Positions 31,204 through 49,084 of a DNA stretch of 64,000 nucleotides are shown one piece after another; position 1 is the stretch's first letter, and every line of letters begins with the position of its first letter. This DNA is from Thermomicrobiales bacterium (GTDB lineage Bacteria > Chloroflexota > Chloroflexia > Thermomicrobiales > UBA6265): NCBI GenBank assembly GCA_046328335.1, contig JAXLWU010000007.1:4094-68093 (forward strand), in the 5' to 3' direction. A model generated the notes under the pieces. That model was given only the letters and a program-made list of their open reading frames with translations, did not search any database and was not told where the DNA came from. The position numbers were made by a program, and so were the translations under genes.

Positions 31204-32042
31204 TGTCGATTGAGCCCTTGAACACCGTGGCTGGCGCGTCTCGCCCCGCGCGTCACAAGGATATCGAGGAACGCGATCCTCCACCGGAGCGGATCGCAAG
31301 CGCCGGCGAGCGCCAACTGCCCGACTTCATCATTATCGGCGCTCAGCGCGGGGGCACCACCTCGCTCTATCGCTACCTGGTGGAACATCCTGACATCGGT
31401 CCCGCCTACTGCAAGGAAGTGCACTATTTCGACCGCTACTTCGATCGAGGCCCGAACTGGTATCTGGCGCACTTCCCCATTCGCGGCGAGTACAAGATCG
31501 CGGGTGAGGCGAGTCCGTACTACCTCTTTCACCCCGAGGTTCCTGAACGGCTGCGCGAGTACGTGCCAAACGCGAAACTGATCGCCTTGCTGCGCAATCC
31601 GATCGATCGGGCCTACTCCCAGTACCAGATGAACTCCCGGAAGGGCAACGAGTCCCTTTCGTTCGAGGAAGCGGTGGAACGGGAACCGGAACGTCTCGCT
31701 GGAACTGATGACCCTCTCGATCCCTCCTGGCGCCATCACTCCTATCTCGCGCGCGGGTTGTACGCGGAGCAGTTGCGCCGCTGGTTCGAGATCTTTCCGC
31801 GCGACCAGATCATGGTCATCCAGAGCGAGCGCTTCTACGGAAATCCGGAACGGACCTTGCATGAGGTTCAGGCGGCAATTGGATTACCTCCCCACACACC
31901 GGGACGATTCAAGGCCTTTCATCAGTCCGAGTATCCGCAGATGGATGACGCGCTGCTCGAACGCCTGCGGGCCCATTTTGCGCCGCACAATCGCGACCTG
32001 TATGACCTCCTGGGCGTCGACTTCGGATGGGACCATGCCTGA
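31200..32042 (+). CDS. Sulfotransferase, family C (heparan-NST / Sulfotransfer_1-like), copy 1
   Basis: ATG at 31200 preceded by GGAAGGAG, overlapping the upstream stop. Has the 5'-PSB PDFIIIGAQRGGTTSLYRYL and the 3'-PB LLRNPIDRAYSQY. Confidence 0.8.
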   Translation: MMSIEPLNTVAGASRPARHKDIEERDPPPERIASAGERQLPDFIIIGAQRGGTTSLYRYLVEHPDIGPAYCKEVHYFDRYFDRGPNWYLAHFPIRGEYKIAGEASPYYLFHPEVPERLREYVPNAKLIALLRNPIDRAYSQYQMNSRKGNESLSFEEAVEREPERLAGTDDPLDPSWRHHSYLARGLYAEQLRRWFEIFPRDQIMVIQSERFYGNPERTLHEVQAAIGLPPHTPGRFKAFHQSEYPQMDDALLERLRAHFAPHNRDLYDLLGVDFGWDHA

Positions 32043-32883
32043 CACGATCCTGATCACCGGTACGCCACGGTCCGGTACCACGCTGACCTGTCACTTGCTG
32101 AACAAGTTGCCAAACACGGTTGCCCTGCACGAACCGATGCGGGGCAAGGACATGCGCCACGGGGAGGGTATCTGCGCCGCCGTAACCGCGTTCTGCGCGG
32201 AGCAACGCGCCTCGATCCTGAAAGCGGGGCTCGCCATCACCAAGCATGCCGGTGGGGCGGTCCCGGCAAACCCGGTGGGTGACAACCGGACCGCGGAGGG
32301 TTACCGGGAGCGGGTTGTCACCAAGGGTGAGATCGAGATCGACAAGCCGGTCGATCCGGATTTCACGCTCGCGGTCAAGCATTGCGGTTCGTTTACGGCC
32401 ACGCTGGACCGCCTGGTCGCCGAATTCCCAGTCTATGGTCTTGTCCGCAACCCACTCGCGACCCTGGCCTCCTGGAGTTCGGTCGATTTCCCGATTCGCC
32501 AGGGCCGGGTACCGACCGCGGAGCGGCTCGATCGCGAACTCGAGGCGACGCTCGATCAGATCGATGACACCCTCGATCGGCAGCTCTTCCTGCTCGATTG
32601 GTTTCACGAGCGAATGCGCCGGTATCTCCCCGAGGCGTCCATTGTCAGGTACGAGGCAGTAGTGGAAACCGGCGGCGCGGCGCTGGCCGTCATGCATCCG
32701 GCCGCTTCGCACTTGTCCGAGGACCTGGACAGCCAGAACCTGAGCAAGCAGTACGACCGCGATCACATGCTTCGACTCGGCGAACGACTTCTGGCCTCAG
32801 ACGGGGCATACTGGAAATCGTACGACCGGCGCGAGGTCGAGAATCTGCTCGACGATCTCCGCGCGCTCCCCGTCGCGAGGTGA
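32035..32883 (+). CDS. Sulfotransferase, family A, copy 3
   Basis: ATG at 32035 overlaps the upstream gene by 8 nt. Contains ILITGTPRSGTTLTCHLLN ... VRNPLATLASW. Confidence 0.7.
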   Translation: MPDTILITGTPRSGTTLTCHLLNKLPNTVALHEPMRGKDMRHGEGICAAVTAFCAEQRASILKAGLAITKHAGGAVPANPVGDNRTAEGYRERVVTKGEIEIDKPVDPDFTLAVKHCGSFTATLDRLVAEFPVYGLVRNPLATLASWSSVDFPIRQGRVPTAERLDRELEATLDQIDDTLDRQLFLLDWFHERMRRYLPEASIVRYEAVVETGGAALAVMHPAASHLSEDLDSQNLSKQYDRDHMLRLGERLLASDGAYWKSYDRREVENLLDDLRALPVAR

Positions 32884-32935: not shown

Positions 32936-33667
32936 CTACCGCACCTCGTAACCCAGCGCTTTGATCAGGTCCGCGTACTGGTCGCGGAAGATGGTCAAAT
33001 GCACGTTGCCGAGTTTGTCGCGCGAGTCACCGACCTTGCCGACTCGTACGTGCCGCGCCAGCCGCTTGCTCATCTTCCGCATATTGTCCACGCTGCAGGC
33101 GTCGATGGCTTTGTCGATGCGGTCGCGATCGACCGGCTCGATCTGGTTCGTGACCGCCGTCAGCGCGCCGACCGCGTCGCGGTGCAGATCTTCGTAGCGA
33201 ACGACGATGGCGCGGCCGCTGTGGATCCATTCCTCGCCCCGGCGCATCTGATCGCCGAAGCCGGTGGCCAGGTAGTCGAGGATCGCTGGATCCTCGAGCG
33301 GTTTGCCGTACATGGTGTCGCGCGGGCGTTCCTTGGGGCGCACCTTGCCCTTCTCCTTGTCGAAATCGGTCCGCGACTGGATCCAGTAGTACATGGAGAC
33401 GAACGCGTCGTACGGATCCCGAATGATGGTCACCAGATGCGCAGGTGTGTCGTCAATGGCGTCGCACAATTTCGCCTTGTAGCGGCAGTGCTGATGAAAG
33501 ATGGTGCCATCGGGGAAACGCCCGTCCGCGATGAATTTGCGGAACTCCTCGACATTGGTATCGGGAGAGTCATCGCCGTTGATCCACTTCAGGTCGTAGA
33601 CCTGGCTGAGGAGGCACTTGATCCACTTGTTCCCCATTTTGGGGGGCGACGTAATGACGATGCGCAA
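32936..33667 (-). CDS. Sulfotransferase, family B (cytosolic-SULT-like), copy 1
   Basis: TTG start at 33665-33667, 5 nt after GGAGGA. Contains IVITSPPKMGNKWIKCLL (variant PSB loop), IIRDPYDAFVS (3'-PB) and VGKVGDSRDKL (GxxGDW-like). Confidence 0.7.
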   Translation of the reverse strand: MRIVITSPPKMGNKWIKCLLSQVYDLKWINGDDSPDTNVEEFRKFIADGRFPDGTIFHQHCRYKAKLCDAIDDTPAHLVTIIRDPYDAFVSMYYWIQSRTDFDKEKGKVRPKERPRDTMYGKPLEDPAILDYLATGFGDQMRRGEEWIHSGRAIVVRYEDLHRDAVGALTAVTNQIEPVDRDRIDKAIDACSVDNMRKMSKRLARHVRVGKVGDSRDKLGNVHLTIFRDQYADLIKALGYEVR

Positions 33668-33699: not shown

Positions 33700-34419
33700 C
33701 TAGCGAACCTCGTATCCCAGATCCTTGATCATGTCGGCATATTTTTCGCGGAAAATCGCGAGGTGCTCTTCGTTCAGTTTTTCGCGCGAGTCGCCAACCT
33801 TCGCGGCGCGCACATGCTTCGATTTCTCGCCACCCATCAGGCGCATCTTGTCCGCGGTGCAGGCATCGACCGCGGCGGCGATCTTCTCGTCCGGTACTGG
33901 CTGAATCTGGTCGGTGATGCTGCGAAGTTCGGTGATGGGATCGGAATGCAGCCGTTCATAGCGAACGATCAAACTTCGCCCACTCTGCAGCCACTCTCGC
34001 GCTCGCCGCATGTTGTTGCGGAAACCGCCGTTGCGCAGATAGGCGAGCACCTCGGGATCGCTCAGCGACTTGCCGAGCATGATGTCGGTGCGACGGCCGC
34101 TGCGCAGCCCGTCGTCCTTGTGCTGCTGGATGGTGAAATACGAGGAGACGAACCCGTCGTACGGATCGCGGATGATGGTGACCGCGTGGGCGGGAACCCG
34201 CTCGATCAGATTGGCAAGATCTTCCGAGTAGTCGTAGTGCTGGTGGAAGAGGGTGTTGTCGGGGAACTTGCCAGCGTCAACCCACTCCTGCAGCAGATGC
34301 AGTTGCGGGCGCCGTGGCGTTTCCCGGTTGCCCAGTGGCCGCAGATCGTAGACATGGGCCAGGATGCACTTGAGCCAGACATTTCCGGCTTTCGGCGGTC
34401 CCGCAATGATGATCCTCAC
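33700..34419 (-). CDS. Sulfotransferase, family B, copy 2
   Basis: GTG start at 34417-34419 after GGAGG. Contains IIIAGPPKAGNVWLKCIL, IIRDPYDGFVS and AAKVGDSREKL. Confidence 0.7.
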   Translation of the reverse strand: MRIIIAGPPKAGNVWLKCILAHVYDLRPLGNRETPRRPQLHLLQEWVDAGKFPDNTLFHQHYDYSEDLANLIERVPAHAVTIIRDPYDGFVSSYFTIQQHKDDGLRSGRRTDIMLGKSLSDPEVLAYLRNGGFRNNMRRAREWLQSGRSLIVRYERLHSDPITELRSITDQIQPVPDEKIAAAVDACTADKMRLMGGEKSKHVRAAKVGDSREKLNEEHLAIFREKYADMIKDLGYEVR

Positions 34420-34648: not shown

Positions 34649-35590
34649 GTGCGCAACGTCCTGTTCTACCGGAAGTACCGCCGCTTTCACGGCGGTCACC
34701 TCAAAGTCTGGAACTACTTCAACCATGTGCGCACGGCGCCCGGCTTTGATGCCCAGGTGCTGTTCGATGCCAACTCGTCCTGGGATGCCACCAACCCCTG
34801 GCACGAGGCGCGGGAGCGGGTGTTCGACCGGGTCGATCAGGTCTCGCCCGATGTGCTCTTCATCGCCGGGCGTGACTGGCAGCGGCTCGATGCGCTTGGA
34901 TTGCTCGATCGCGATCTGCCGATCCTGAACATCATCCAGCATGTGCGCCATGCCGAAGACTGGAGCATCCAGTCGCGGTATCTCGATCGCAAGGCGATTC
35001 GCATTTGCGTCAGCGATGAAGTCGCCGAGGTGGTGAGCGGCGCTGGCAGCCGCGGTCCGGTGGTCGTCATTCCCAATGCGGTCGATGTACCGGCGACATC
35101 CGACGACGGATCTGCTTCGCGTCCGATCGATCTGTTCATTGCGGGATTGAAGAATAGCGGAACGGCGGCGCGAGCCGCCTCCGCGCTGAGCGCACCGGAC
35201 CGAACGATCGACATTGTGACCGATCAGTTGCCCCGCGACGAGTTTCTGGATCGAATCCGCCGGGCGCGAGTGTCGCTTTTCCTCCCGAACGACGACGAGG
35301 GGTTCTATCTGCCGGCGCTCGAAGGGATGGCGCTCGAAACACTGGTGGTCTGCCCGGACTGTGTTGGCAACCGCTCGTTCTGCATTCCTGGCGAGACGGC
35401 CTTCCGGCCCGACTACGATTTCGACCAGTTGATCGCGGCGACCGAGGCCGCACTCACGCTGCCCGCGGCAGAAGCGAACCGCATGCTCGAGCAGGGGCGA
35501 GCGATGGCGCGCCGGCATAGCCTTCCCGCCGAGCGGGAGGCATTTCATCAGGTCCTGGCCGATCTGGACGAACTCTGGGCCCAAGCCTGA
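34649..35590 (+). CDS. GT-B (GT4-like) glycosyltransferase, paralogue 2
   Basis: 313 aa. Roughly half of its positions are identical to 30262..31203 by eye. Contains EGFYLPALEGMALETLVVCPDCVGNRSF. Confidence 0.7.
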   Translation: MRNVLFYRKYRRFHGGHLKVWNYFNHVRTAPGFDAQVLFDANSSWDATNPWHEARERVFDRVDQVSPDVLFIAGRDWQRLDALGLLDRDLPILNIIQHVRHAEDWSIQSRYLDRKAIRICVSDEVAEVVSGAGSRGPVVVIPNAVDVPATSDDGSASRPIDLFIAGLKNSGTAARAASALSAPDRTIDIVTDQLPRDEFLDRIRRARVSLFLPNDDEGFYLPALEGMALETLVVCPDCVGNRSFCIPGETAFRPDYDFDQLIAATEAALTLPAAEANRMLEQGRAMARRHSLPAEREAFHQVLADLDELWAQA

Positions 35591-35874: not shown

Positions 35875-36594
35875 TCAGCGAACGGGATAGCCGAGTTGTG
35901 CGATGAGGTCGGCGCACGACTCGCGAAACGCGCCGAGGTGATCCGCGGTCAACTGGTCGTGCGAATCGCCGACGGTGGCCTTGCGCACATGCTTTGCGCC
36001 GCCCTTGGTGCGCTGCCGCATCTTGTCGGCGCGGCAGTAATCGATCGCGACCTCGAGTTGTTCGTCCGGTAGCGGCGCAATGCTGGCAGTGAGCCGGCGG
36101 AGTTCGCCGAGAGAATCACGGCTGAGGTCCTCGTACCGGACAACTGCCGCTTTACCACACGTCGACCAATCGATCGCCTTTTGCAGATTGTTGCGGTAGC
36201 CGCCCTCGCGAATGAACGCGACAACGGTGGGATCATCGAGCGGTACGCCCATCAGCTCGGTGAACTTGCGCCCTTTCCGGTTGTCCTCGGCGGCATGCTG
36301 TTGCAACGTGTAATACGTCGAAACGAACGCGTCGTAGGGGTCGCGCACGATTGTCACCAGGTTCGCGCCACCAGCCACCAACGCATCCGCCGTCTCGGCA
36401 TCGTATTCGAAATGCTGGTGAAAGATGGTGTTGTCGGGGAACCGGCCCGAGGTCAGCCACTCCCGCAGCGAGCTCAGGTCAGCCTGCGCCGGCGTTTCGT
36501 GCGGTCGCAGCCAGCGTAGACCGTAGGCACGGCCGAGGAGGCATTTGAGCCACATGTTGCCGGTTTTCGGTGGTCCGGTGATGACGATTCTCAC
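35875..36594 (-). CDS. Sulfotransferase, family B, copy 3
   Basis: ORF 35875..36741 trimmed to the GTG at 36592-36594 (GGAG 8 nt upstream), giving 239 aa, the same as copy 2. Contains IVITGPPKTGNMWLKCLL, IVRDPYDAFVS and KATVGDSHDQL. Confidence 0.7.
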   Translation of the reverse strand: MRIVITGPPKTGNMWLKCLLGRAYGLRWLRPHETPAQADLSSLREWLTSGRFPDNTIFHQHFEYDAETADALVAGGANLVTIVRDPYDAFVSTYYTLQQHAAEDNRKGRKFTELMGVPLDDPTVVAFIREGGYRNNLQKAIDWSTCGKAAVVRYEDLSRDSLGELRRLTASIAPLPDEQLEVAIDYCRADKMRQRTKGGAKHVRKATVGDSHDQLTADHLGAFRESCADLIAQLGYPVR

Positions 36595-36631
36595 CGCGCA
36601 GGCTCCATGCCGCGGAGGCCGTCGTCGCGCA

Positions 36632-37933
36632 TCAGACGGCGTACCCGAACTGCTGCAGGACGTCCCCGAACTCGGCGTTGACCACGTCCTGCAACTCTGG
36701 CGAGAGCGAACTGCGCCAGCGGCCCAACGAGGTGGAGACATCGCTGCTGGTGATGTGCCGGGTCGATTCCGGGTTCTCGGCGGAAGCCCGATCGAGCATG
36801 CCCGCGATCACCGCCTCGGAGGCGTCCAGTTCGAGATACTGGAGCACGCCGCGCAGGATCTCCTCCGGCTGGGTGATGAGATCCTCGTAGCGGATCAGGT
36901 GCGCGCGGGACTGTCGTTTTGGCCAGGAACGACTCAGATTGCGGATCGTGCTGTTTCGCAGGAAATGCGCGAATTCCTCGTCGGTCTTGAGATGGGGCGG
37001 TCCAAAGGCGCGGCGTCCGAACTTCTTGTTGTACGCGAGCATCGAACTGAAGACATCGCGGAAGTCCCGGACCAGGAAGATCTCTTTCGCCTTGGGATAG
37101 AGTTCCCAGACCAGCCAGGGCAGATTGTCGGCGCGATGCTTCTCTCCCATATAGCGGACGTTGCTCTGGCCCTGACCGGCGGCGATCCGCAGGTACGTCT
37201 CCTCGGCGCTGCGCTGGCAAAAGCGGGCCAAATCCTCGACATATTCGCGGCCCATCCAGTCGATCAATCCGGGCGTGACACCGATCGGCTCCGGATAAAA
37301 CGGGTTGTGCCCGATCCACTGCTTGTTGGTCTGAAACCGGTCCGCCTGGGCCGAGTGATGGGGATCACGCGGTTCGGACAGGGTCTTCAACATGTGCCAC
37401 CAGTAGCGGGCGGTGCGGAGTTCGTAGGGGTGGAAGCGGTGGACGACGATCTCGGGATGCTCCGAGAGGAGACGCATGGTCCAGGTCGTTCCGGCGCGGC
37501 CCATGGTCGTCAGCATCAGGGGTTGCAACCGTGGTTCGAACCCGGATTGCACCGGTGCGTGACGCAACCGCACGCCACCGAGCCGCGCCCGTGAGCCGTC
37601 ATCGAGCACGGCGCGAATCTGCAATTCCGTCTCCGGTTCGAGGCCGACCACGCTCACCCAGGTACGGAAACCCGCATGACCGGCGCCGGGAACATCCGGG
37701 TAGTCGCGCGCCACGTCCGGCCGTTCCTGATCGAGCGGAGCGCGCCGGAGGACGACACCGCCCTGGTGAATCTCGACCTCCTGGACGCGCTGGCCGTCGC
37801 CGATGGCCCAACCGGCGATTTCGAGGTCATAGACATTGCGCGTGCCGATGCGGGGCGCATCGAGGGCAAAACTCCGGATCTTGCCCGTCTGCGGAGCGCC
37901 GAGCTCGATATCGTCGATGTCGATCAGCGCCAT
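36632..37933 (-). CDS. Two-domain protein: N-terminal roughly 105-aa recurring module plus family D sulfotransferase
   Basis: The module (about 37559..37933) has LEIAGWAIG...RPDVARDYPDVPGAGHAGF. The ST domain has TTMGRAGTTWTMRLL (5'-PSB), FLVRDFRDVFSS (3'-PB) and SLGRWRSSL. Confidence 0.65.
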   Translation of the reverse strand: MALIDIDDIELGAPQTGKIRSFALDAPRIGTRNVYDLEIAGWAIGDGQRVQEVEIHQGGVVLRRAPLDQERPDVARDYPDVPGAGHAGFRTWVSVVGLEPETELQIRAVLDDGSRARLGGVRLRHAPVQSGFEPRLQPLMLTTMGRAGTTWTMRLLSEHPEIVVHRFHPYELRTARYWWHMLKTLSEPRDPHHSAQADRFQTNKQWIGHNPFYPEPIGVTPGLIDWMGREYVEDLARFCQRSAEETYLRIAAGQGQSNVRYMGEKHRADNLPWLVWELYPKAKEIFLVRDFRDVFSSMLAYNKKFGRRAFGPPHLKTDEEFAHFLRNSTIRNLSRSWPKRQSRAHLIRYEDLITQPEEILRGVLQYLELDASEAVIAGMLDRASAENPESTRHITSSDVSTSLGRWRSSLSPELQDVVNAEFGDVLQQFGYAV

Positions 37934-38065
37934 GAACCGCGCAATCCTTTCCTGTTCTTCACTATCGTCCCGGTCGCGCCGCGCCGGGCATGCAAACTCG
38001 CAAACCGTGACAGAGTGCGGGGAGGTGTGTCAAGGTGGCAGCAGAGTATCGCCAGCACGGGAATG

Positions 38066-39250
38066 TCATGTCCAGCCCGGATCCCAGCCGAGAAGGTCCG
38101 CGAGGGCGGCATTGGCGGGCGCGAAATGGGCGACCAGGCGCTCGCGCATCGCCAGCGAGAGGGGGGGGCCGGTGTTGCGATTGTAGACCGCGAACGGAAT
38201 GTCCTCTCCCGGCGGCAGACCGAGAAACGCGGTCACGGTCGTGAACGTATCGGCGGTCCGCGCGTAGAGGTCTTCACTCCGCAGGATCAGCATCTGTTCC
38301 TGGGGAAACGTCGCAAACCAGCGCCGGAGTTGGTGCGTGTAGTCCCCGCGTGCCTGGTAGCTGAAATGCTTGTGAGGACGACTGGCATACGCCGGATCGG
38401 TTACGAGCCGCGCTTCCTCGCCGGCCAGTCGTGTGGCCTCGGCGTCCAGCGCTGCAGCGAAGTCGAGTGGTTCATCTCCCCGCTGCCGTTCCATGAGGTA
38501 GTGCGAATAGGCTCGCTCGACCGGGTTGCGGAGCAGGACGATCAGTTTCGCGTCGGGTGCGGTCTGGGCCAGCCGCCGTGGCGCCAATGGGTGGAAGAGC
38601 GCATACGGCGTCGCTTCCCCGGTGAGATAGCCGGCTGGCAACCGTGCCGGGAACTGCCCGCGATACCAGTCCTCGCCGCGAGCGTGACGATCGGTCAGGT
38701 AATGAATTTCCTTGGTTTCCGGGAGGGTGATTTGGGAATGTGCGCCAAGATAGGCATGGAGCGATGTAGTTCCGCCACGCTGCGTACCGATAATGAGGAA
38801 ATCTGGTCGATCAACGAGGCGAAAATCTGGTCCTGTCTCGATTTCAACTGCGGTGAGGTCCAGACGAACGGTGGCGAGATCGATGGATGTTTCATCCGCG
38901 AGTATCGCCTGAACGACGAGTGACGTTTCCCCGACCTCCGCAGCGAGCCCCGTCCAGCAAAGGAATCCGCTCTTGCGGGCAAGGGGAAGCGCCGGGTAGT
39001 CACCCGCAACGTCTGGCCTCGGCACATCGAGGGGATGGGTTGTTCCCATTTGGTCATGATTGAGGATGCGCACCCCAACCACCGGCTCCCGCTCGCCGAT
39101 GACCCAGCCACTGATCTCGATGCCGGCCCCTGGTGATACAGCGCCGCGCTGAGGCGAGTCGATCGCGAATGCGGCGATGCGTGGGTCGTTGCCATGACGC
39201 GCAACGTCCAGGACACGAACCTGGCGTCGCGGTTGTCGCTCTGGACTCAC
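38066..39250 (-). CDS. Two-domain protein: N-terminal recurring module plus family C sulfotransferase (copy 2)
   Basis: GTG at 39248-39250 overlaps the upstream stop (GTGA). The module (about 38855..39175) has IEISGWVIG...RPDVAGDYPALPLARKSGF. The ST domain has PDFLIIGTQRGGTTSLHAYL and LLRNPVERAYSHY. Confidence 0.75.
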   Translation of the reverse strand: MSPERQPRRQVRVLDVARHGNDPRIAAFAIDSPQRGAVSPGAGIEISGWVIGEREPVVGVRILNHDQMGTTHPLDVPRPDVAGDYPALPLARKSGFLCWTGLAAEVGETSLVVQAILADETSIDLATVRLDLTAVEIETGPDFRLVDRPDFLIIGTQRGGTTSLHAYLGAHSQITLPETKEIHYLTDRHARGEDWYRGQFPARLPAGYLTGEATPYALFHPLAPRRLAQTAPDAKLIVLLRNPVERAYSHYLMERQRGDEPLDFAAALDAEATRLAGEEARLVTDPAYASRPHKHFSYQARGDYTHQLRRWFATFPQEQMLILRSEDLYARTADTFTTVTAFLGLPPGEDIPFAVYNRNTGPPLSLAMRERLVAHFAPANAALADLLGWDPGWT

Positions 39251-40746
39251 GCGGTGGCGGCTTGCGGCGGCAACGGGCGGTGCCGCTCCCAGCAGATTCC
39301 CCACTTTTCCTCGAACCGGCCCTGATTCAAATGGACCAGCCGCATGTATTCGCCGGAAGGCAGCAGTTTGCCGATCGAGGCGTGATAGGCGTGATGGACG
39401 TAGACCTCCGGGGTCCAGGCTACCTCGAGACCGGCTTCCTTGACGCGGAGCGCGTAGTCCTCGTCTTCGAACATGCCGACCTCGTACCGCTCATCGAGGA
39501 GGCCGATCCGATCGAGGGTGTCGCGGCGAAGTGCGGTGCAGAACATGGCCAGCATGCGGATCGGCCGCACCTCGCGCTCGTGTTCGAGGGCAAACTGACG
39601 CGCGATGTCCTGATACTCTGCATACGTCTGGTATTGCGGATTGAGTTGCGCTTCGTTGCACGTTCGATTCGTCGCCGGGCCGATGAGCCCGATCAACGGG
39701 TCCTGGAGATGGCGGGCCAACCGGGTAAGCCAACCGCGGGGCACGATGGTGTCGTTATTGAGCAAGACGATGATGTCGCCCGTGGCGGACCGCATTCCCT
39801 GATTGTTGCCGCCTCCAAATCCGGTGTTGTGATCGTTGAAGATCGGCCGGAGGGTGGGAACGGTGGCAGCGAGGCGCTGCAATTCCTCGACTGTCCCGTC
39901 TGTGGAGGCATTGTCGACCACGATCAGTTCGTAATTCGGATACTCCGTGTTTTCCAGCACGCTGGCGAGACAGAGGCGGCTGAACGCGAGATTGTCGTGG
40001 GTGAGCACGACAACACTCGCCTTTGGCCATGTCTGCCGGATCGCGGAGTCGAGGACGGCCCAGCGTGCGGGCCAGGACACCTCACGCGAAAGATCGAGCG
40101 CCCGGCTTTGGCCCGATAAGGCGTTCGAGTCGAAGGCAATCGGGATATCCGCGTCATTGGCTCCCGTGTGGCGAGGATTTCGGCAGCCGCACGATTTCAC
40201 GACCGGCGCATCGCTGGCAATTGACACGATCCGCCAGCCGAGCCGGTCGCGAATGCGCTGATGCAGCGCCGAGCAGACGGAGGCAGGGAGCAGGATCGCG
40301 GCGGCATCGATGCCGAATTCGCGTTGGAGGCTGACCAGTGCGTCGATGGTGGGAGCGGCGATGCGATAGGTGACACCTGGGCCGATCGGCCGCGCCGCGT
40401 CTGGTGCGTCAGACTGCAGCACGAAAACCCGGTGCTCGTGACGCGAGAACTCGGCGATCAACCGGTTCTCGTACTCGGTATCAGATGGCGCATCAGACGA
40501 CACCACGATCAGGTCGTAGCGGGCCAATCGCGGCGTGAAGGCGGTCGCCAGCGCGCGGTGCACGGTCGCCTCGGGAAGTTCCGGTTCACGCGCGCGGTCG
40601 CGCGCGGCGATCACCAGATCACCGACGAGCAATGGGGGCGTTGCCACGGCGCGGCGGCGCCTGCCGCAGTTGCAACCGGGATGCGGCAGGTCATCCGCCA
40701 TCGGCAAACTCATGGTGCGGCTGGAGTCCGCGAAGTCAGGAGACAC
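39247..40746 (-). CDS. GT2 glycosyltransferase with an unassigned N-terminal domain of about 230 aa
   Basis: The C-terminal half has VVVLTHDNLAFSRLCLASVLENTEYPNYELIVVDNASTDGT and FEDEDYALR (GT-A, DxD context). The GTG start at 40746 overlaps the upstream gene by 11 nt. Alternative ATGs are at 40713 and 40701. Confidence 0.75.
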   Translation of the reverse strand: MSPDFADSSRTMSLPMADDLPHPGCNCGRRRRAVATPPLLVGDLVIAARDRAREPELPEATVHRALATAFTPRLARYDLIVVSSDAPSDTEYENRLIAEFSRHEHRVFVLQSDAPDAARPIGPGVTYRIAAPTIDALVSLQREFGIDAAAILLPASVCSALHQRIRDRLGWRIVSIASDAPVVKSCGCRNPRHTGANDADIPIAFDSNALSGQSRALDLSREVSWPARWAVLDSAIRQTWPKASVVVLTHDNLAFSRLCLASVLENTEYPNYELIVVDNASTDGTVEELQRLAATVPTLRPIFNDHNTGFGGGNNQGMRSATGDIIVLLNNDTIVPRGWLTRLARHLQDPLIGLIGPATNRTCNEAQLNPQYQTYAEYQDIARQFALEHEREVRPIRMLAMFCTALRRDTLDRIGLLDERYEVGMFEDEDYALRVKEAGLEVAWTPEVYVHHAYHASIGKLLPSGEYMRLVHLNQGRFEEKWGICWERHRPLPPQAATA

Positions 40747-43700
40747 GGGGCACGTCCATGTTCAATCGAGCATCCTCTCCGGTTCGGGTGAGATTCGGGT
40801 TGTAGAACGGGTCATGGTCGATGACATGCCCCCAGCGCTCGCGCAAATGCATGATTTCGTCCGGATGGGCGATCACGGTCTTGGTGACCGATTCGTGATG
40901 GTACAGACACGCGTGCGGCGTGTAGACCACATCGTACCCCGCCTCGCGCACGCGCAAGCAGAAATCGGTGTCGTTGAACGCGACCGGGAAGAGGGTGGCG
41001 TCCATACCTCCGATCTCTTCGTAGACCTTCCGGTCAATCAGCGCGCAGGCGAAGGTTACCGCGCTGAAGTTGCGGACCGCATCGGGAAGATCGAGGAAGC
41101 CGGGATTGTGGCCGGGTAGCCGCTTGAAAACGTGAACCGACCCGCCGAACGGGCCAAGGATCACTCCGGCGTGCTGGATCGTATCATCGGGGTAGAGGAG
41201 TTTCGGCCCGACGATCGCCACGCCCGGCCGCTGCGCCTGCTCGACCATCGCCCGCAACCAGCCGGGGTCGATAACCGACACATCATCATTGAGCATCAGG
41301 ACGTACGGCGTGGTGACCTGTCTCACGGCGTCATTGTTCAGTGCCGGGAAATTGAACGGCTTGCGGTCATCGACGATGCGTCGCACGTTGGGATAGTTCG
41401 GCGCGAGTTCGCCAACGAGATTGGCGACGTTTTCGCCGCGCGAGTTATCGACGAGCAGGATGTCGAGAGGTGGATAGTCGGTTCGCTCCAGCAGGTCTTC
41501 CAGACAGGGGCGAAGCAGGTCGAGTTTGCCACCGGTGGGGATGACCGCCGTGACCGCCGGCAGTTCGTCGAGCGAGTACCGCACCCGCCACAGCCCCGGA
41601 TGGAGGCCAAGCTCGACCTGCGCCGGGGTCTTCCGCCGCGAGACGGCATCAAGAATGACGGCCCGTTCGCTATCGGACCAGTCGCGCAGATGCCAGGGCT
41701 CGCCGCGCTGCGGCGCCACCGCGATCGTGGTAGCCAGCACCTCGGGAACGTGGATGATCGGCCCTGGCTGCTCGCTGACCCGCAGCGCGAGATCGAAGAT
41801 CGCAGCGTCGCCGACTCCCTCGCGCACCCCGCCCACCTGGAGCGCCCGCTCCCGCGAAAAGACGACCAGCGGCCCAAGATAGTTCATCGCCAGGAGCAGA
41901 TCCGGTGACCAGTCGGGTTTGAAAAATGGATTCCAGCGAACCGCGCGGACCGGATCGACGCGGTCGTCATCGACATACACCAGGGCCGTGTCCGGTCGAT
42001 CCGAGGCGACGCCAGCAATGCGCGCCAGCGCATCTGGCGAAAGGATGACGCCGGGGGAGAGGACCGCCACCAGGTCGGCGTTGCTGTCGCGCATCGCCGC
42101 GTTGACCTGCTCCGCCATGCTGTCGCCACTGCCGGTGGTCACGCCAAAGCGTGGATCGTTCCCGGCCAGCTGGCTGGCGCCGGATCGAGCGACGTCGCCG
42201 GAATCGTTTCCGATCAGCACGCGCGCGCGCCATGCCGGGTACGTCTGCGCGGAAATGGAGGTGGCAAGCGCGTCGAGTTCGTTTTCACATGCTCCGGTGA
42301 CAGGAATGAGCAGGTCGAACGTGGGACCTCGATCACTGGCTGGCGTCTCAGCGGGCGCTGCCTGTCGTTGCGCCAGCCACGCCGGGTACTGGCGGTTGAT
42401 GGCGGGCATGCCAGCGTCGATATAGTCGCCATCGTCGACGGCGATCTGCGTCGGGAGTTCGAGGCTCTGACCGTCGTTGGCGGTGATGACCACGACCAGT
42501 TCATGGGTGCCACTGGAGAGACCCGCAAGCGGAATCGACCCGGCAAAACCGCAATGATCCGCGTTTGGATACTGCCGGCGCCGTTTCGCGGCATCGGGTC
42601 GTAGGGCGCCGTAATGGAGACTGCCGCGCGGCTCGCCGTTGACGAGCACCGTCAACGAGCGGATGCCGGACGAGGCCAGCGCCCAGCCGGATACCGGCGC
42701 GAGTTCGCCGGAGGCGTAATTGGCGCCGCGCACCGTACTGTCGAGACGGCCGATGACCCGGCCCGTTTCGAAGGCGCGGCTGTCGACCTCGAACATCGTC
42801 TTCAATTCGGCCCGGGAATCCTCGGCGCCGGTGATGCGGATGGTCAGTTCGTGCATGCCATCGGGCAGATCGCCCACCGAGATTTCCCCGGAGAATCCGG
42901 CGTTCTCTCCCGCGGGGTACCCAGGAAACAACGCGGCGGCATCCGGACGCGGTTCACCATGCGGTATTTCGCCACGCAGTTCGCCGTCGACCAAGGCTTC
43001 GACCCGCACCTCGCCGGTGTCCGTCAAGGTCCAACCGGAAATCGGCAGGATGCCGTCGGTGAAAACTTCGGGGATGCGGCTGAGTGATTCGACCATACCG
43101 ACAATGCGATGCGGCAAGGTGTTGGCCGCGGGTGGCTCATCGGTCGCTTCCACCACCTCGTTCCGGGTCTCGCTAGACGTTGTCTCTGGCGCGGCTGCCG
43201 GTTCAGACTGATGGGCGGGGAGATTCACCGTCTCGACTTGCGCGCGCAAGATGGCAAGTTGGCGTTCCGCCTCGGCGGCGCGGGCCTCCGCTTCCTGGAC
43301 GCGGACGTTGAGCACGATGTTGTTCCGCACCAGGATCATCACCTGACGGGAGCGGTCGAAGAGCATGCGGTCGGCGAGCCGGTCCTGCTCCCCGGCCTCG
43401 AACCCCGCCAGCAGCGGCGACACCGTCAACTTGATCGGGTAGCGCGCCCCGTAGTGCGCCGAGAGGAGACCGTCCAGCCAGTAGTAGCCGAAATCGTCCG
43501 GGATGACCTTCTCCTGCCAACGCTCACTAAAGAGCGCGCGGTTGGCCCGCTCCGTGGCGGTCATGACATCCCGCGTTGCCGACTCGAAGTGGTAGAGGAC
43601 ACTCTCGGCGCAAAAGTGGACCTCGTAGCCTGCCTCCCCCGCGCGAAGGCAGAAATCGACATCTTCCCAGCCGTTGCGATACGACGTATCGAGACCACCG

Positions 43701-44278
43701 AGGCGGTCCCACGGTTCGCGGCGAAAGAGAGCGCAAGCGCCGGTGACCACCTGGTACCGGCGGGACATGGCGGTGCAGGGGTGATCGGCCGGGAAACCGG
43801 AGTAGATGTGGTGTGGCAGGCTATCGAGTCCGAACACCACGCCCGCATGTTGGATGGTGTTGTTTGGAAACAGGAGCTTCGAACCAACCACGGCCGCACG
43901 TGGATGCTGCTGAGCGTACGCGACCAGCGCTCGTAACCAGCCCTTTGTCGGAATCGTGTCGTTGTTGAGCAGGACCACGAATTCACCGCTCGCGGCCGCA
44001 TAGCCCGCGTTGCAGGCGCCCGCAAACCCCTGCGCGGCTTCATGGTGCACGACCCGGATGCGATCGCCATACCCCGCGAGAAACTGCGCGGTGAGATCGC
44101 TCGACCCGTCGTTGACGACGACGATCTCACGGCGTACGCCATCGTCCGCCTCGGCGAGGAGCGCGTCCAGGCACTGTCGCGTAATCGTCGCCTTGTTGTG
44201 AACCGGGATGACGACCGACGCCGACGGGTGCCCGTGCAGGGGCAGATCTGCCGGCTGGCGCGGCTCAGCGGAGGTCAT
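40736..44278 (-). CDS. 1180-aa multidomain glycosyltransferase: GT2, short coiled coil, 2x recurring module, GT2-like, GT2
   Basis: GT2 no. 1 is aa 18-240 (SVVIPVHNKATITRQCLDALL, VVVNDGSSD, WEDVDFCLR). An EA-rich helix spans aa 318-350. Modules span aa 391-499 and 508-615. A GT2-like region spans aa 655-850. GT2 no. 3 is aa 908-1130 (VTAVIPTGGKLDLLRPCLEDLL, LLVDNS, FNDTDFCLR). Confidence 0.8.
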   Translation of the reverse strand: MTSAEPRQPADLPLHGHPSASVVIPVHNKATITRQCLDALLAEADDGVRREIVVVNDGSSDLTAQFLAGYGDRIRVVHHEAAQGFAGACNAGYAAASGEFVVLLNNDTIPTKGWLRALVAYAQQHPRAAVVGSKLLFPNNTIQHAGVVFGLDSLPHHIYSGFPADHPCTAMSRRYQVVTGACALFRREPWDRLGGLDTSYRNGWEDVDFCLRAGEAGYEVHFCAESVLYHFESATRDVMTATERANRALFSERWQEKVIPDDFGYYWLDGLLSAHYGARYPIKLTVSPLLAGFEAGEQDRLADRMLFDRSRQVMILVRNNIVLNVRVQEAEARAAEAERQLAILRAQVETVNLPAHQSEPAAAPETTSSETRNEVVEATDEPPAANTLPHRIVGMVESLSRIPEVFTDGILPISGWTLTDTGEVRVEALVDGELRGEIPHGEPRPDAAALFPGYPAGENAGFSGEISVGDLPDGMHELTIRITGAEDSRAELKTMFEVDSRAFETGRVIGRLDSTVRGANYASGELAPVSGWALASSGIRSLTVLVNGEPRGSLHYGALRPDAAKRRRQYPNADHCGFAGSIPLAGLSSGTHELVVVITANDGQSLELPTQIAVDDGDYIDAGMPAINRQYPAWLAQRQAAPAETPASDRGPTFDLLIPVTGACENELDALATSISAQTYPAWRARVLIGNDSGDVARSGASQLAGNDPRFGVTTGSGDSMAEQVNAAMRDSNADLVAVLSPGVILSPDALARIAGVASDRPDTALVYVDDDRVDPVRAVRWNPFFKPDWSPDLLLAMNYLGPLVVFSRERALQVGGVREGVGDAAIFDLALRVSEQPGPIIHVPEVLATTIAVAPQRGEPWHLRDWSDSERAVILDAVSRRKTPAQVELGLHPGLWRVRYSLDELPAVTAVIPTGGKLDLLRPCLEDLLERTDYPPLDILLVDNSRGENVANLVGELAPNYPNVRRIVDDRKPFNFPALNNDAVRQVTTPYVLMLNDDVSVIDPGWLRAMVEQAQRPGVAIVGPKLLYPDDTIQHAGVILGPFGGSVHVFKRLPGHNPGFLDLPDAVRNFSAVTFACALIDRKVYEEIGGMDATLFPVAFNDTDFCLRVREAGYDVVYTPHACLYHHESVTKTVIAHPDEIMHLRERWGHVIDHDPFYNPNLTRTGEDARLNMDVPRVS
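42434..43108 (-). other. Two tandem copies of the roughly 105-aa recurring module inside the 1180-aa GT
   Basis: Copy 1: ILPISGWTLTDTGEVRVEALVDGELRGEIPHGEPRPDAAALFPGYPAGENAGFSGEISVGDLPDGMHELTIRI. Copy 2: LAPVSGWALASSGIRSLTVLVNGEPRGSLHYGALRPDAAKRRRQYPNADHCGFAGSIPLAGLSSGTHELVVVI. Both align with the N-termini of 36632..37933 and 38066..39250. Confidence 0.7.
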
Positions 44279-47397: not shown

Positions 47398-49068
47398 TCA
47401 GGCGGGGATCTGCCCCCGTAGCCTGCCGAGCGCGTAGATTGTCGCGACTCCGCGCTCACGATAAACCGCTTCGTAGCGGTCGTCGAGATGGCGTTCCAGA
47501 TCGGGATGGTTCGCCAACCAGGGCAGCGCGGTGCCAGGCACCACCAGATACTCCGCGCCGCCGCCGCGCGAGGCTTCGAGTTCGGCGATCGCCGCGGCAC
47601 TGCTGATATCAGTGTAATCCGCGGTGACCGAATCGGTCGCCACCGGGAAGGGCGTGGCTGGTCTGGCGCCATGCACGAGGAATGCGTCATCGCCGTAGGT
47701 GGCAACGAGCAGGGTGGCATCTGGCGGAACGTTCGCCTCGACAATGCTCCGAATCTGAGCGACGAGACGGCGGTGGTAGATGGAGGCCGGCGCACCCGGC
47801 GCGTGCCGGCTGAGCACCGCGCCCAGCACGCCCATGATCTCCGCGTCGCGCTGCATCTGAATCGATTGGGTCGCCGTCAGCATCGCCCGCTGCTCCCGTT
47901 CGTAGAGCAAGGCGATTTCGAGTTCACGTTCGCGCGCGGAAAGGTCCTCCCGCAGCCCGGCCGATTCCCGCTCACGGGCCGTGAGTTGCTCACGCAAGGC
48001 GGCGATGGTCTGCTGCTGTTGGATGAGCAGGGCGTTCCGCTCGTTGACCTTGCTGTCGCGTTCAGCGACTTTCCCTTCGAGTTCGGCGCGAAATGATTCA
48101 TGCACCGCCAGCGCATTCTCCAGTTCACGAATGCGAGCGGTGAAATCGGCATTGTTGCGGCGAAGCGCCTCATTTTCGATCCGCAGCAAATCGACGCGGC
48201 CAAGACCCCTCACGACACTGTCGTTGGCCCGCGCGGGAAGCGACACCGAGGCATCGGTCAGGGCCTCCAGATCGGCTTGTCCTTCCCACCATTCGGCCTC
48301 GTCGCACAGTCGCCGATAGAGTTCGACCACCTCTCGGGGAAAATCGTGCTCGATGAGGTCGCGCAACGTGCGCTGATGATGGCGCAGCGCGGACACCGGC
48401 GCGGATTGCGTCTCGTCCACCGTGGGAGCCGGGGGACGACCCAGGCGAGACAATACCCGCTGCAATTCCGCCTCGGGGCGCAAGAACCAGGTATCGAAGT
48501 GGGTCACGATCCGATCGCTAGCAAGCGTATCGACGATGATCCGCTCCGCGTACGTTTGCCACAGGGTGAGACCCAGAGCGAGCGAGAATCCGTCCCGGCG
48601 ATGCAACGACGTCACGACTTCGAGGGGATTACGGACCACGACCAGCGTCTGTAGTGGGCCAATCGCCGAGCGCCAGAATGGAATGGTCAGGCTGTTGCGT
48701 GGATCTTTCCATCCCCACCATGCCGCTTCGCTCAGCGGAGCGGCATGGGACCTCGCTCGCTCGCGCAAGGGGTCGAGATTGGGATCCGTCCAGTCGAACC
48801 CTGCGGGAGGTGGGCAGTCCCAGCCCCCGCCGGCCATGTTCAGCAGTTCATCGTTGAGGCGGACGAGGCCGAGATGCTCGAAGAAGCCCTCCGGGTTTTC
48901 CGCGGCGGGAGGCATGAGGTCATCGAGATCACCAAGGTAGAGCCCGGCCTGCTGCAGAGCGCGCGCCACCATCGACGTTCCGGAACGGTGCATGCCGGCA
49001 ATGCACACGGGTGCGTCAGTGTGGCTCGAGCGTCCCGAGGCCACTTTCTCTGCCAATTGCTCCTGCAT
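47398..49068 (-). CDS. Family E sulfotransferase fused to a long coiled coil and a C-terminal domain
   Basis: ATG at 49066-49068 preceded by GGGGAG. ST domain aa 20-230 (VCIAGMHRSGTSMVARAL; VVVRNPLEVVTSL). Heptad-rich, charged region aa about 291-410 (47839..48198). C-terminal globular domain aa about 415-556. Confidence 0.7.
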   Translation of the reverse strand: MQEQLAEKVASGRSSHTDAPVCIAGMHRSGTSMVARALQQAGLYLGDLDDLMPPAAENPEGFFEHLGLVRLNDELLNMAGGGWDCPPPAGFDWTDPNLDPLRERARSHAAPLSEAAWWGWKDPRNSLTIPFWRSAIGPLQTLVVVRNPLEVVTSLHRRDGFSLALGLTLWQTYAERIIVDTLASDRIVTHFDTWFLRPEAELQRVLSRLGRPPAPTVDETQSAPVSALRHHQRTLRDLIEHDFPREVVELYRRLCDEAEWWEGQADLEALTDASVSLPARANDSVVRGLGRVDLLRIENEALRRNNADFTARIRELENALAVHESFRAELEGKVAERDSKVNERNALLIQQQQTIAALREQLTARERESAGLREDLSARERELEIALLYEREQRAMLTATQSIQMQRDAEIMGVLGAVLSRHAPGAPASIYHRRLVAQIRSIVEANVPPDATLLVATYGDDAFLVHGARPATPFPVATDSVTADYTDISSAAAIAELEASRGGGAEYLVVPGTALPWLANHPDLERHLDDRYEAVYRERGVATIYALGRLRGQIPA

Positions 49069-49084
49069 CGGTCTCCCCGCGACT

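What the first reader, a model, noticed from the sequence alone, without database searches (positions are those of the whole stretch)
36632..43108. A roughly 105-aa module recurs four times in three proteins of different catalytic type
Seen: the same module occurs in four places.
- At the N-terminus of the family D sulfotransferase (about 37559..37933).
- At the N-terminus of a family C sulfotransferase (about 38855..39175).
- Twice in tandem in the middle of the 1180-aa triple-GT2 protein (42782..43108 and 42434..42757).

The shared pattern is hydrophobic-x-[IV]-[SA]-G-W-[ATV], then a strand, then RPD[VA]A, then [YF]P, then GF, then G.HEL/L.V. The stand-alone family C paralogue (31200..32042) lacks the module.

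Inference: this is a beta-sandwich-like targeting domain, either glycan-binding or an assembly/dimerisation domain. It would recruit modifying enzymes and the polymerase to the same nascent chain or complex. I cannot name the family from memory.
Basis: partly seen in the sequence, partly recalled or inferred. Interest (0 to 1): 0.55.

Follow-up and report, generated by a model that had tools for sequence, protein, structure and literature searches.

The report
Shared Ig-like handle on glycan-building enzymes
Three cytoplasmic enzymes of one sulfated-polysaccharide gene cluster in a Thermomicrobiales bacterium carry four copies of the same ~105-residue Ig-like domain, a divergent relative of the "Big_7" repeats of secreted cell-wall hydrolases, which probably holds polymerase and tailoring enzymes on the same growing sugar chain.

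Summary
There is no fifth copy in the window.

The module can be named. It is a divergent member of the Pfam Big_7 (PF17957) bacterial Ig-domain superfamily (hhalign 99.4 %, E 4e-21 against bona fide Big_7 repeats), although the window copies score below Pfam's cut-off. AlphaFold gives a confident beta-sandwich (pLDDT 92). No close solved structure exists.

The family is large: 7,812 cluster representatives. Its best-scoring members are mostly secreted peptidoglycan hydrolases with up to 12 tandem copies. Here the module sits on soluble cytoplasmic enzymes: a multi-GT2 polymerase and two unrelated PAPS-type sulfotransferases.

This arrangement is conserved in at least 10 Thermomicrobiales genomes. 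Independent clusters elsewhere also pair a multi-module GT2 with a module-bearing tailoring enzyme.

The function is inferred, not shown. The most likely role is a polymer-binding and/or oligomerising handle, analogous to the tandem Ig-like domains of S. aureus TarS. I rate it a new variant of a known kind, of moderate interest.

The parts
37559..37927 (-). Module copy in sulfotransferase A (residues ~3-125 of ORF 36632..37933). It has one extra N-terminal strand (residues 4-11).
   Evidence: BLASTP; HMM envelope; AlphaFold full-length model with strands 4-125.
36635..37525 (-). Catalytic PAPS-type sulfotransferase domain of A (residues ~137-433). The P-loop strand follows the module after a linker of only ~11 residues.
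   Evidence: Pfam Sulfotransfer_3 5.9e-19 and Sulfotransfer_1 1e-12. Foldseek best matches are TPST1/2, the CurM sulfotransferase domain and Stf9.
38855..39187 (-). Module copy in sulfotransferase B (residues ~40-150 of ORF 38066..39304; the true start is probably GTG 39250).
   Evidence: BLASTP A/B 7e-20; HMM 3.8e-51; start codon read.
38069..38806 (-). Catalytic sulfotransferase domain of B. It is 47 % identical to the module-less paralogue at 31188..32042.
   Evidence: Pfam; BLASTP 2e-71.
42782..43108 (-). Module copy C1 (residues 391-499 of the 1180-aa glycosyltransferase).
   Evidence: BLASTP C1/C2 4e-24. AlphaFold model m867778cd207b has pLDDT 92.4 and shows eight strands plus a short helix at the RPD motif.
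42434..42757 (-). Module copy C2 (residues 508-615), in tandem with C1.
   Evidence: It gives a weak Pfam Big_7 hit (E 0.079-0.13).
43529..44227 (-). N-terminal GT2 domain of protein C.
   Evidence: Pfam PF00535/PF13641 at residues 18-245.
43223..43327 (-). Short helical, probably coiled-coil, segment (residues ~318-352) between the first GT2 domain and the two modules.
   Evidence: Read from the sequence and a weak coiled-coil-type Pfam hit at residues 312-378. This is an inference only.
41960..42310 (-). Degenerate middle GT2-like domain of protein C.
   Evidence: PF00535 E 8e-4, 19.8 bits, below the 23.3-bit cut-off.
40889..41557 (-). C-terminal GT2 domain of protein C.
   Evidence: NCBIfam HpsN-like match at residues 908-1130 and Pfam GT2 stretches.
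39247..40746 (-). GT2 gene lying between C and B. It has no module and belongs to the conserved C-GT2-B-A gene order.
   Evidence: Pfam; HMM scan negative; the gene order is conserved in L002-L011.
31188..32042 (+). Stand-alone paralogue of B's catalytic domain. It lacks the module and serves as a natural control.

Best explanation
**What it is.** The four segments are copies of one ~105-residue Ig-like beta-sandwich domain. It is a divergent, cytoplasmic branch of the Big_7 (PF17957) repeat family. The best-scoring members of that family decorate secreted peptidoglycan hydrolases.

**Setting.** The window comes from a Thermomicrobiales (Chloroflexota) bacterium. The surrounding cluster should make a sulfated, probably rhamnose-containing, glycan.

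**Where the domain was grafted.**
- Twice in tandem into the chain-building multi-GT2 enzyme.
- Once onto the N-terminus of each of two PAPS-dependent sulfotransferases from different subfamilies.

**Most likely role (inferred).** The module is a non-catalytic handle that binds the nascent, still cytoplasmic, lipid-linked polymer, and possibly oligomerises as well. This would keep the polymerase and the tailoring enzymes on the same chain and raise local concentration and processivity. The nearest precedent is the pair of tandem Ig-like, CBM-type domains of the cytoplasmic GT2 enzyme TarS, which acts on wall teichoic acid.

**Shown:** homology of the four copies, the fold, family membership at profile level, soluble cytoplasmic host proteins, conservation, and recurrence in other clusters.

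**Inferred:** polymer binding and co-localisation.
For: **Homology and fold.**
- The four copies are homologous.
- AlphaFold gives a beta-sandwich with pLDDT 92.4 and pTM 0.84.

**Family.**
- hhalign against Big_7-positive repeats gives 99.4 % probability, E 3.9e-21.
- The exhaustive profile search finds 7,812 cluster representatives.
- Sampled top hits match Pfam Big_7 with E values from about 1e-18 to 1e-72.
- In 94 of the top 150 the repeats accompany a peptidoglycan amidase or glucosaminidase. This is the position normally held by wall-glycan-binding repeats.
- A marginal sequence match (E 0.001) falls on the C-terminal domain of the endolysin EfAmi1. Its authors regard that domain as a putative carbohydrate-binding module (PMC10167349).

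**Host proteins are cytoplasmic.** They have no signal peptide and no transmembrane segment, and they use PAPS or NDP-sugars.

**The module is portable and accessory.**
- A and B share only the module.
- B's paralogue lacks it.
- Other Thermomicrobiales loci carry it on additional GT2 enzymes (L007, L012).
- Some homologues of A carry two copies.

**It is under purifying selection.** Mean pairwise identity among A orthologues is 58 % for the module and 69 % for the catalytic domain.

**The pattern recurs.**
- The C-GT2-B-A arrangement with modules is found in at least 10 genomes.
- L063 has an 8-module GT2-GT9 enzyme plus a module-bearing TylF-type methyltransferase.
- L062 has a 5-module GT2 plus two further module-bearing proteins.

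**Position rules out a pure linker.** In A and B the module is N-terminal, so it connects nothing.

**Precedent.** TarS, described in PMC5156392.
Against: - No binding or interaction was tested.
- The invariant residues (GW, RPD, YP, GF) are the same in extracellular and cytoplasmic members. They therefore look structural rather than ligand-specific.
- The modules are neutral to acidic: net charge -1, -7, -13 and 0. This argues against electrostatic binding of a sulfated chain, although the sulfotransferase substrate is not yet sulfated.
- Foldseek finds only generic Ig-like/E-set folds with TM 0.5-0.64, and no specific CBM family.
- The best fold matches include the dimerisation domain of sulfite oxidase, which fits the oligomerisation rival equally well.
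- The A/B modules and the C1/C2 modules are not each other's closest relatives in an unsupported NJ tree.
Confidence: 0.45

Rival explanations
1. The module is a docking or oligomerisation domain. Modules bind each other, homotypically or between A, B and C. This would assemble a multi-enzyme complex, or simply make each enzyme oligomeric, without touching the glycan.
For: - The best fold matches by TM-score (0.62-0.64) are to the E-set dimerisation domain of sulfite oxidases and dehydrogenases.
- In the TarS precedent the tandem Ig-like domains form the trimer interface.
- The same module on three enzymes of one operon is what a shared docking code would look like.
- In L063 the methyltransferase's module is nearest to a module of the neighbouring GT in the tree, which has no support values.
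- The acidic or neutral surface charge does not favour binding of an anionic polymer.
Against: - The extracellular members occur as long tandem arrays on monomer-type hydrolases. There, self-association is not an obvious need.
- The fold matches are generic.
- No multimer prediction could be run.
- Full-length A is modelled with pTM 0.81 and a short linker. This suggests the module packs on its own catalytic domain rather than dangling as a free docking unit.
Confidence: 0.3
2. The module is an inert structural spacer or stabiliser. It would be an Ig-like domain that only separates or rigidifies neighbouring domains, or aids folding and solubility, with no binding role.
For: - Ig-like domains often act as spacers.
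- In protein C the two copies sit between GT2 domains, after a helical segment.
- The conserved residues look fold-determining.
Against: - In A, B, the L007 GT2 and the L063 methyltransferase the module is terminal, so it spaces nothing.
- It is kept at 58 % mean pairwise identity among A homologues that are 59-86 % identical to A.
- It has been acquired repeatedly by different tailoring enzymes within glycan clusters.
Confidence: 0.15
3. The module binds lipid carrier or membrane. The beta-sandwich would hold the polyprenyl carrier or the membrane surface, in the way that ML-domain proteins and RhoGDI bind lipids. All the enzymes would then be tethered to the lipid-linked intermediate.
For: NPC2 (an ML domain) and RhoGDI appear among the Foldseek matches, with E values from 2e-4 to 6e-3. 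All the host enzymes must act at the membrane on a lipid-linked substrate; this last point is an inference.
Against: - Those matches have low TM-scores (0.44-0.52) and high rmsd (5.6-7.9 A).
- No hydrophobic or amphipathic segment was found.
- The secreted hydrolase relatives have no reason to bind polyprenol.
Confidence: 0.05

Closest known systems
Pfam Big_7 (PF17957), 'Bacterial Ig domain', as found in tandem on secreted amidase_3 and glucosaminidase autolysins, S8 proteases and chitinases
   Same: - Homologous at profile level (hhalign 99.4 %, E 3.9e-21).
- Shares the GW...RPDV...YP...GF signature and an Ig-like beta-sandwich fold.
   Different: - The window copies fall below Pfam's cut-off: 14 bits against 24.1.
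- The repeat unit is about 100-105 residues, whereas the Pfam model has 70 positions.
- The host proteins are cytoplasmic biosynthetic enzymes, not secreted hydrolases.
- In an unsupported tree the extracellular repeats form a group separate from the cytoplasmic ones.
C-terminal tandem Ig-like (CBM48/CBM68-like) trimerisation domain of Staphylococcus aureus TarS (PMC5156392)
   Same: - Non-catalytic Ig-like domains in tandem on a cytoplasmic GT2-type enzyme that acts on a lipid-linked polymer.
- Proposed there to bind the polymer and to contribute to processivity and oligomerisation.
- This is the best mechanistic analogue.
   Different: - No detectable sequence relationship: TarS is absent from the PDB profile hits at E <= 1.
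- TarS is not among the top 50 Foldseek matches.
- TarS's domain is C-terminal and sits on a single enzyme. Here one module is shared by a polymerase and sulfotransferases.
C-terminal domain of the Enterococcus faecium prophage endolysin EfAmi1 (PDB 8C4D entry sequence; PMC10167349)
   Same: - A marginal sequence match (E 0.001) that includes the GW...RPDV...Y..GF motif.
- It occupies the cell-wall-binding position of an endolysin, and its authors suggest it is a new carbohydrate-binding module.
   Different: - The domain was lost from the crystal, so no structure exists.
- Its function is only predicted.
- It is extracellular in action.
- The similarity is weak.
Fn3-like X1 modules of Clostridium thermocellum CbhA (PDB 3PDD)
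   Same: The nearest solved structure that is picked up both by the sequence profile (E 0.004) and by fold (Foldseek E 6.7e-4, TMq 0.58).
   Different: - Both matches are weak.
- The X1 modules are extracellular parts of a cellulase.
- They lack the RPD-helix insertion.
C-terminal carbohydrate-binding domain of O-antigen ABC-transporter Wzt proteins (from general knowledge of the ABC-transporter-dependent pathway)
   Same: A cytoplasmic beta-sandwich that recognises a nascent, lipid-linked glycan. It shows that glycan-binding modules do operate on the cytoplasmic face.
   Different: - Not compared here, because no sequence was at hand.
- It belongs to the exporter, not to the synthetic or tailoring enzymes.
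- No ABC transporter was identified among the window ORFs examined.

Membership tests
Pfam Big_7 (PF17957) bacterial Ig domain | Scores above Pfam's gathering threshold (24.1 bits) | tested here: not met
   Only C2 gives any hit (14.1 bits, E 0.079). A, B and C1 give none.
Pfam Big_7 (PF17957) bacterial Ig domain | Profile-level homology to sequences that are bona fide Big_7 members | tested here: met
   - hhalign of the four window copies against 12 Big_7-positive repeats gives 99.4 %, E 3.9e-21 over 99 columns.
- Seven top hits of the window profile were checked. Six match Big_7 at E 3e-18 to 2e-72; the GT2 fusion P0039 matches only below the cut-off at 4.5e-4.
- The bridging sequences P0014 and P0015 pass the Big_7 cut-off.
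Pfam Big_7 (PF17957) bacterial Ig domain | Ig-like beta-sandwich fold | tested here: met
   The AlphaFold model has pLDDT 92.4 and shows eight strands plus one short helix. Foldseek matches are all Ig-like, E-set or Fn3-like.
Pfam Big_7 (PF17957) bacterial Ig domain | Extracytoplasmic host protein (typical of the family, not formally defining) | tested here: not met
   - A, B and C have no signal peptide and no transmembrane segment (maximum KD19 1.53).
- They carry PAPS- or NDP-sugar-dependent domains.
- Among the top 150 family representatives, 111 of 139 complete N-termini look like signal peptides by a simple hydrophobicity heuristic.
Carbohydrate-binding module (any CAZy CBM family) | Demonstrated binding of a carbohydrate by the isolated module | not testable with these tools
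   This needs ITC, a glycan array or a pull-down with the purified module.
Carbohydrate-binding module (any CAZy CBM family) | Significant sequence or fold similarity to a defined CBM family | tested here: inconclusive
   - Foldseek against the PDB gives only generic Ig-like/E-set matches (E >= 1.9e-4, TM <= 0.64).
TarS-type tandem Ig-like trimerisation / polymer-binding domain | Sequence or close fold similarity to TarS C1/C2 | tested here: not met
   TarS is absent from the PDB profile hits at E <= 1 and from the 50 best Foldseek matches.
TarS-type tandem Ig-like trimerisation / polymer-binding domain | Non-catalytic Ig-like domain(s) fused to a cytoplasmic enzyme that acts on a lipid-linked glycopolymer | tested here: met
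   The domain architecture of A, B and C. The TarS architecture comes from PMC5156392.
TarS-type tandem Ig-like trimerisation / polymer-binding domain | Mediates oligomerisation | not testable with these tools
   No multimer prediction was available. SEC-MALS or a structure is needed.
Wzt C-terminal glycan-binding domain | Homology to the Wzt C-terminal domain | not tested
   No Wzt sequence was compared. No Pfam hit of that kind appeared.

The most novel reading that the evidence does not exclude
The cytoplasmic branch of the Big_7 family is a portable 'assembly-line tag' for polysaccharide biosynthesis. Whichever enzyme carries it is recruited to one nascent lipid-linked chain or to one multi-enzyme complex; the carriers seen so far are polymerising GT2s, sulfotransferases, O-methyltransferases and proteins of unknown type. 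The set of tagged enzymes in a cluster would then define which modifications are made while the chain is being polymerised. This would be a docking logic comparable to that of PKS/NRPS or cellulosome systems, and it has not been described for bacterial glycan tailoring.
Probability: 0.2. Interest if true: 0.7.

Novelty: new variant of a known kind. Interest (0 to 1): 0.45.

Why it matters
**The open question.** It is poorly understood how cytoplasmic tailoring enzymes find and stay on a growing lipid-linked polysaccharide. These enzymes include sulfotransferases and methyltransferases. Outside a few O-antigen and teichoic-acid systems little is known, and bacterial glycan sulfation has hardly been studied at all.

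**What this finding offers.**
- A shared ~100-residue handle on both polymerase and tailoring enzymes gives a concrete, testable hypothesis for co-localisation or processivity.
- It gives a simple sequence marker for identifying which enzymes of a cluster act on the same polymer.
- It gives a potential fusion tag for engineering sulfated polysaccharides.

**Annotation gap.** A large set of cytoplasmic Ig-like domains is missed by the current Pfam thresholds. Public records for these proteins annotate only the catalytic domain.

Tried and rejected
**Rejected explanations.**
- Chance or low-complexity similarity: excluded by the pairwise E-values and the HMM scan.
- A fifth, hidden copy in other enzymes of the cluster, including the 240-residue N-terminus of the GT2 at 39247..40746 and the other sulfotransferases: none found.
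- 'Generic linker': cannot hold for A and B, where the module is N-terminal.

**Searches that found nothing useful.**
- A direct Pfam or NCBIfam name for the window copies: nothing above threshold.
- A solved structure of a close relative. The PDB profile searches gave only marginal hits. Foldseek gave only generic Ig-like folds.
- A solved sulfotransferase with such an N-terminal domain: none.
- Literature on Big_7, on Ig-like domains in cytoplasmic glycan enzymes, and on bacterial sulfated-glycan clusters: nothing describes this module.

- The word-indexed protein search with module profiles returned only short fragments. It could not give a census of domain architectures.
- The NJ tree of modules has no support values and long branches. 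It is used only as a hint.


Full report
**1. The observation**

The region holds three minus-strand genes:
- A, 36632..37933, 433 aa.
- B, 38066..39304, 412 aa as listed.
- C, 40736..44278, 1180 aa.

Pfam assigns the catalytic domains as follows:
- A carries Sulfotransfer_3 and Sulfotransfer_1 from residue 138.
- B carries the same families from residue 167.
- C carries GT2 domains at both ends.
- Nothing covers A 1-135, B 1-165 or C 390-620, apart from a sub-threshold Big_7 hit in C.

All six pairwise BLASTP comparisons of them are significant:

| Pair | E-value |
|---|---|
| A/B | 7e-20 |
| C1/C2 | 4e-24 |
| A/C1 | 9e-9 |
| A/C2 | 1e-5 |
| B/C1 | 1e-5 |
| B/C2 | 4e-5 |

The alignment keeps G-W, R-P-D-x-A, a later P (the [YF]P motif region) and G-F invariant. 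An HMM of the four copies, run with all filters off against the six-frame translation of the whole window, recovers only these four. The next hit has E = 0.013.

The similarity is a shuffled domain, not paralogy of whole genes:
- A and B are similar only across the module.
- B's catalytic domain is 47 % identical to the module-less sulfotransferase at 31188..32042.

**2. What the module is**

*Family size and hosts.*
- A profile of the four copies was searched exhaustively against 1.84 billion cluster representatives. It finds 7,812 proteins at E <= 1e-3 and 438 at E <= 1e-30.
- The top hits carry up to 12 tandem copies.
- The sampled top hits are Firmicutes-type secreted proteins, and their repeats are strong Pfam Big_7 (PF17957) matches, with E values from about 1e-18 to 1e-72.
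- Where public records name them, they call them 'Ig-like domain-containing protein' or N-acetylmuramoyl-L-alanine amidase.

*Relationship of the window copies to Big_7.*
- The window copies fall below Pfam's cut-off. C2 scores 14 bits against a cut-off of 24.1, and the others give nothing.
- A profile-profile comparison of the four copies with 12 Big_7-positive repeats gives 99.4 % probability, E 3.9e-21 over 99 columns.
- Two bridging sequences hit by the window profile pass the Big_7 threshold themselves.
- The module is therefore a divergent member of the Big_7 superfamily. The natural repeat unit is about 100-105 residues, longer than the 70-position Pfam model.

*Structure.*
- AlphaFold2 on copy C1, with a 55-sequence alignment, gives pLDDT 92.4 and pTM 0.84. 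The model is a sandwich of eight strands, with one short helix formed by the RPDxxxxxP motif.
- Foldseek against the PDB finds only generic Ig-like/E-set folds:
  - the sulfite oxidase dimerisation domain, TM 0.62-0.64;
  - NPC2;
  - the Fn3-like X1 modules of CbhA;
  - CopC and RhoGDI.
  
  The best E-value is 1.9e-4.
- PDB sequence-profile searches give only marginal hits.
  - The best (E 0.001) is the C-terminal domain of the E. faecium prophage endolysin EfAmi1.
  - That domain was lost from the crystal. Its authors only predict it to be a carbohydrate-binding module (PMC10167349).
- No member of the family appears to have a solved structure.

**3. Context**

*Organism.* Relatives of protein C in named genomes are Thermomicrobiales/Sphaerobacteraceae MAGs of the Chloroflexota, at 47-63 % identity.

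*The cluster.* Searches identify:
- at least nine sulfotransferase-like genes;
- GT61, GT1-like, GT2 and GT28-like genes;
- a PMT-like multi-pass membrane protein;
- rmlC, rmlD, a further epimerase/dehydratase, and a nucleotidyltransferase-like ORF (by eye).

This implies a sulfated glycan that probably contains rhamnose. No ABC transporter was identified among the ORFs examined.

*Location of A, B and C.* They have no signal peptide and no hydrophobic segment (maximum Kyte-Doolittle 19-residue mean 1.53). They use cytoplasmic donors, PAPS and NDP-sugars. Here the module therefore works in the cytoplasm. By contrast, among the top 150 family representatives:
- 94 are peptidoglycan hydrolases;
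- 111 of 139 complete N-termini look like signal peptides by a simple heuristic;
- six are GT2 fusions without a signal peptide.

**4. Conservation and recurrence**

*Within Thermomicrobiales.*
- The order C (two modules) - GT2 - B (one module) - A (one module) is found in L002-L009 and L011.
- L007 adds a 475-aa protein consisting of a module and a GT2 domain.
- L012 adds a protein with two modules followed by GT2 domains.
- A-type sulfotransferases with the module form 613 clusters at E <= 1e-10. All are annotated only as 'sulfotransferase' or hypothetical.
- Four longer homologues carry two N-terminal modules.
- Among 20 A homologues the module is 58 % identical on average, against 69 % for the catalytic domain. 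The module is therefore under purifying selection.

*Outside the order.*
- A Bryobacteraceae protein has a coiled coil, two modules and two GT2 domains (L023).
- A Nitrospirota protein has nine modules and two GT2 domains (P0094).
- In the L063 metagenome cluster an eight-module GT2-GT9 protein lies next to several relevant genes:
  - a TylF-type methyltransferase with an N-terminal module (E 1e-12);
  - a sulfotransferase whose N-terminus is a weak match (9 bits);
  - a GT61 gene.
- In L062 a five-module GT2 lies in one cluster with two further module-bearing proteins of unknown type and with PMT_2 genes.

The combination 'polymerising GT plus tailoring enzymes that share the module' therefore recurs independently.

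An NJ tree without support values shows three things:
- the extracellular repeats group together;
- the L063 methyltransferase module lies next to a module of its neighbouring GT;
- the A/B modules lie apart from C1/C2.

**5. How it most likely works**

*Shown:*
- The module is an autonomous Ig-like domain of the Big_7 superfamily.
- It is grafted onto cytoplasmic enzymes of different catalytic type that act in one pathway.
- It is accessory, because paralogues exist without it.
- It is conserved, and the arrangement is recurrent.

*Inferred:* the module acts as a handle for the nascent lipid-linked polymer, possibly combined with oligomerisation, so that polymerase and sulfotransferases stay on the same chain.

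*Arguments for this reading:*
- In the secreted relatives the repeats occupy the position of wall-glycan-binding repeats.
- In A and B the module is terminal, so it cannot be a linker.
- Full-length A is modelled with pTM 0.81 and only an ~11-residue connection to the PAPS-binding strand. This places the module next to the active site.
- The closest mechanistic precedent is TarS. Its tandem Ig-like CBM-type domains form the trimer, are proposed to bind poly-ribitol-phosphate, and raise intrinsic processivity (PMC5156392).

*Arguments against:*
- The invariant residues are the same in all contexts, so they look structural.
- The modules are neutral to acidic.
- Fold matches are generic, and the best ones are to a dimerisation domain.

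I give polymer binding 0.45, pure docking or oligomerisation 0.30, inert spacer 0.15 and lipid or membrane binding 0.05.

**6. Comparison with what is known, and novelty**

- Membership of the Big_7 superfamily is supported at profile and fold level, but not by Pfam's own threshold.
- The cytoplasmic setting departs from the family's typical setting.
- The module is not a TarS homologue. The resemblance is functional only.
- No solved sulfotransferase has such a domain.
- Literature searches found no description of this module on cytoplasmic glycan enzymes.
- I rate it a new variant of a known kind: a known domain family in an undescribed cytoplasmic role that spans several enzyme classes.
The binding or assembly function itself remains untested.

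**7. Limits**

- Model coordinates could not be inspected, so no surface analysis was done.
- No multimer prediction was possible.
- The family census rests on the top 150 representatives, which are biased towards proteins with many repeats.

Noticed in passing
window 39247..39304: B is listed from GTG 39304. A GTG at 39250 forms a GTGA overlap with the stop codon of the upstream GT2 gene (39247..40746). That is the more likely start and would give a protein of about 394 aa, translationally coupled to the upstream gene.
   Followed up: partly
window 24894..26462 (+); also 23878..24792 (+) and 32047..32883 (+): The 522-aa protein seems to fuse a weak methyltransferase-like N-terminus (Methyltransf_24, E 0.19) to a P-loop 'TGTPRSGTTL' sulfotransferase-like domain. 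Two shorter paralogues of that domain lie nearby. All score below Pfam's sulfotransferase cut-off, so they may form a separate sulfotransferase-like family.
   Followed up: partly
window 32936..33667, 33700..34419, 35875..36741 (all -): There are three small paralogous Sulfotransfer_1-type genes (Pfam checked for two of the three). Together with A, B, 31188..32042 and 47398..49200, the cluster holds at least nine sulfotransferase-like genes. That is an unusually high number for a bacterial glycan cluster.
   Followed up: partly
window 30178..31203 (+) and 34649..35590 (+): Two paralogous GT1-like glycosyltransferases, each with Pfam scores just below the cut-off. Each is flanked by sulfotransferase genes, which suggests a duplicated sub-module of the cluster.
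   Followed up: no
window 26581..28419 (+): A 612-aa multi-pass membrane protein with only a weak PMT (GT-C) hit (E 0.022). The unrelated module-bearing cluster L062 also contains PMT_2 genes. It may be the transferase or ligase that handles the finished glycan outside the membrane.
   Followed up: partly
window 41960..42310 (-), inside protein C: The middle 'GT2' of the 'triple-GT2' protein is degenerate (PF00535 19.8 bits, below the 23.3-bit cut-off). It may be non-catalytic.
   Followed up: partly
P0298, P0305, P0308, P0314 (homologues of A, 575-613 aa): Some A-type sulfotransferases carry two N-terminal modules. The extra one is closer to canonical Big_7. One of these proteins comes from a MAG labelled Actinomycetota.
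   Followed up: partly
L063 7873..9183 (-) and 9654..10832 (+): In a metagenome cluster with an eight-module GT2-GT9 protein, a TylF-type methyltransferase carries an N-terminal module. A sulfotransferase there has a short, weakly matching N-terminal variant (IAGWA...RP...GF). A GT61 gene is also present, as in the window.
   Followed up: yes
window 47398..49200 (-): A 600-aa protein with a sub-threshold sulfotransferase-like N-terminal half and coiled-coil-type weak hits in its C-terminal part. It lies next to the rml genes.
   Followed up: no
window 40027..40746 (-): The first ~240 residues of the 499-aa GT2 encoded between C and B match no family and are not a module. They form an uncharacterised N-terminal domain.
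   Followed up: partly
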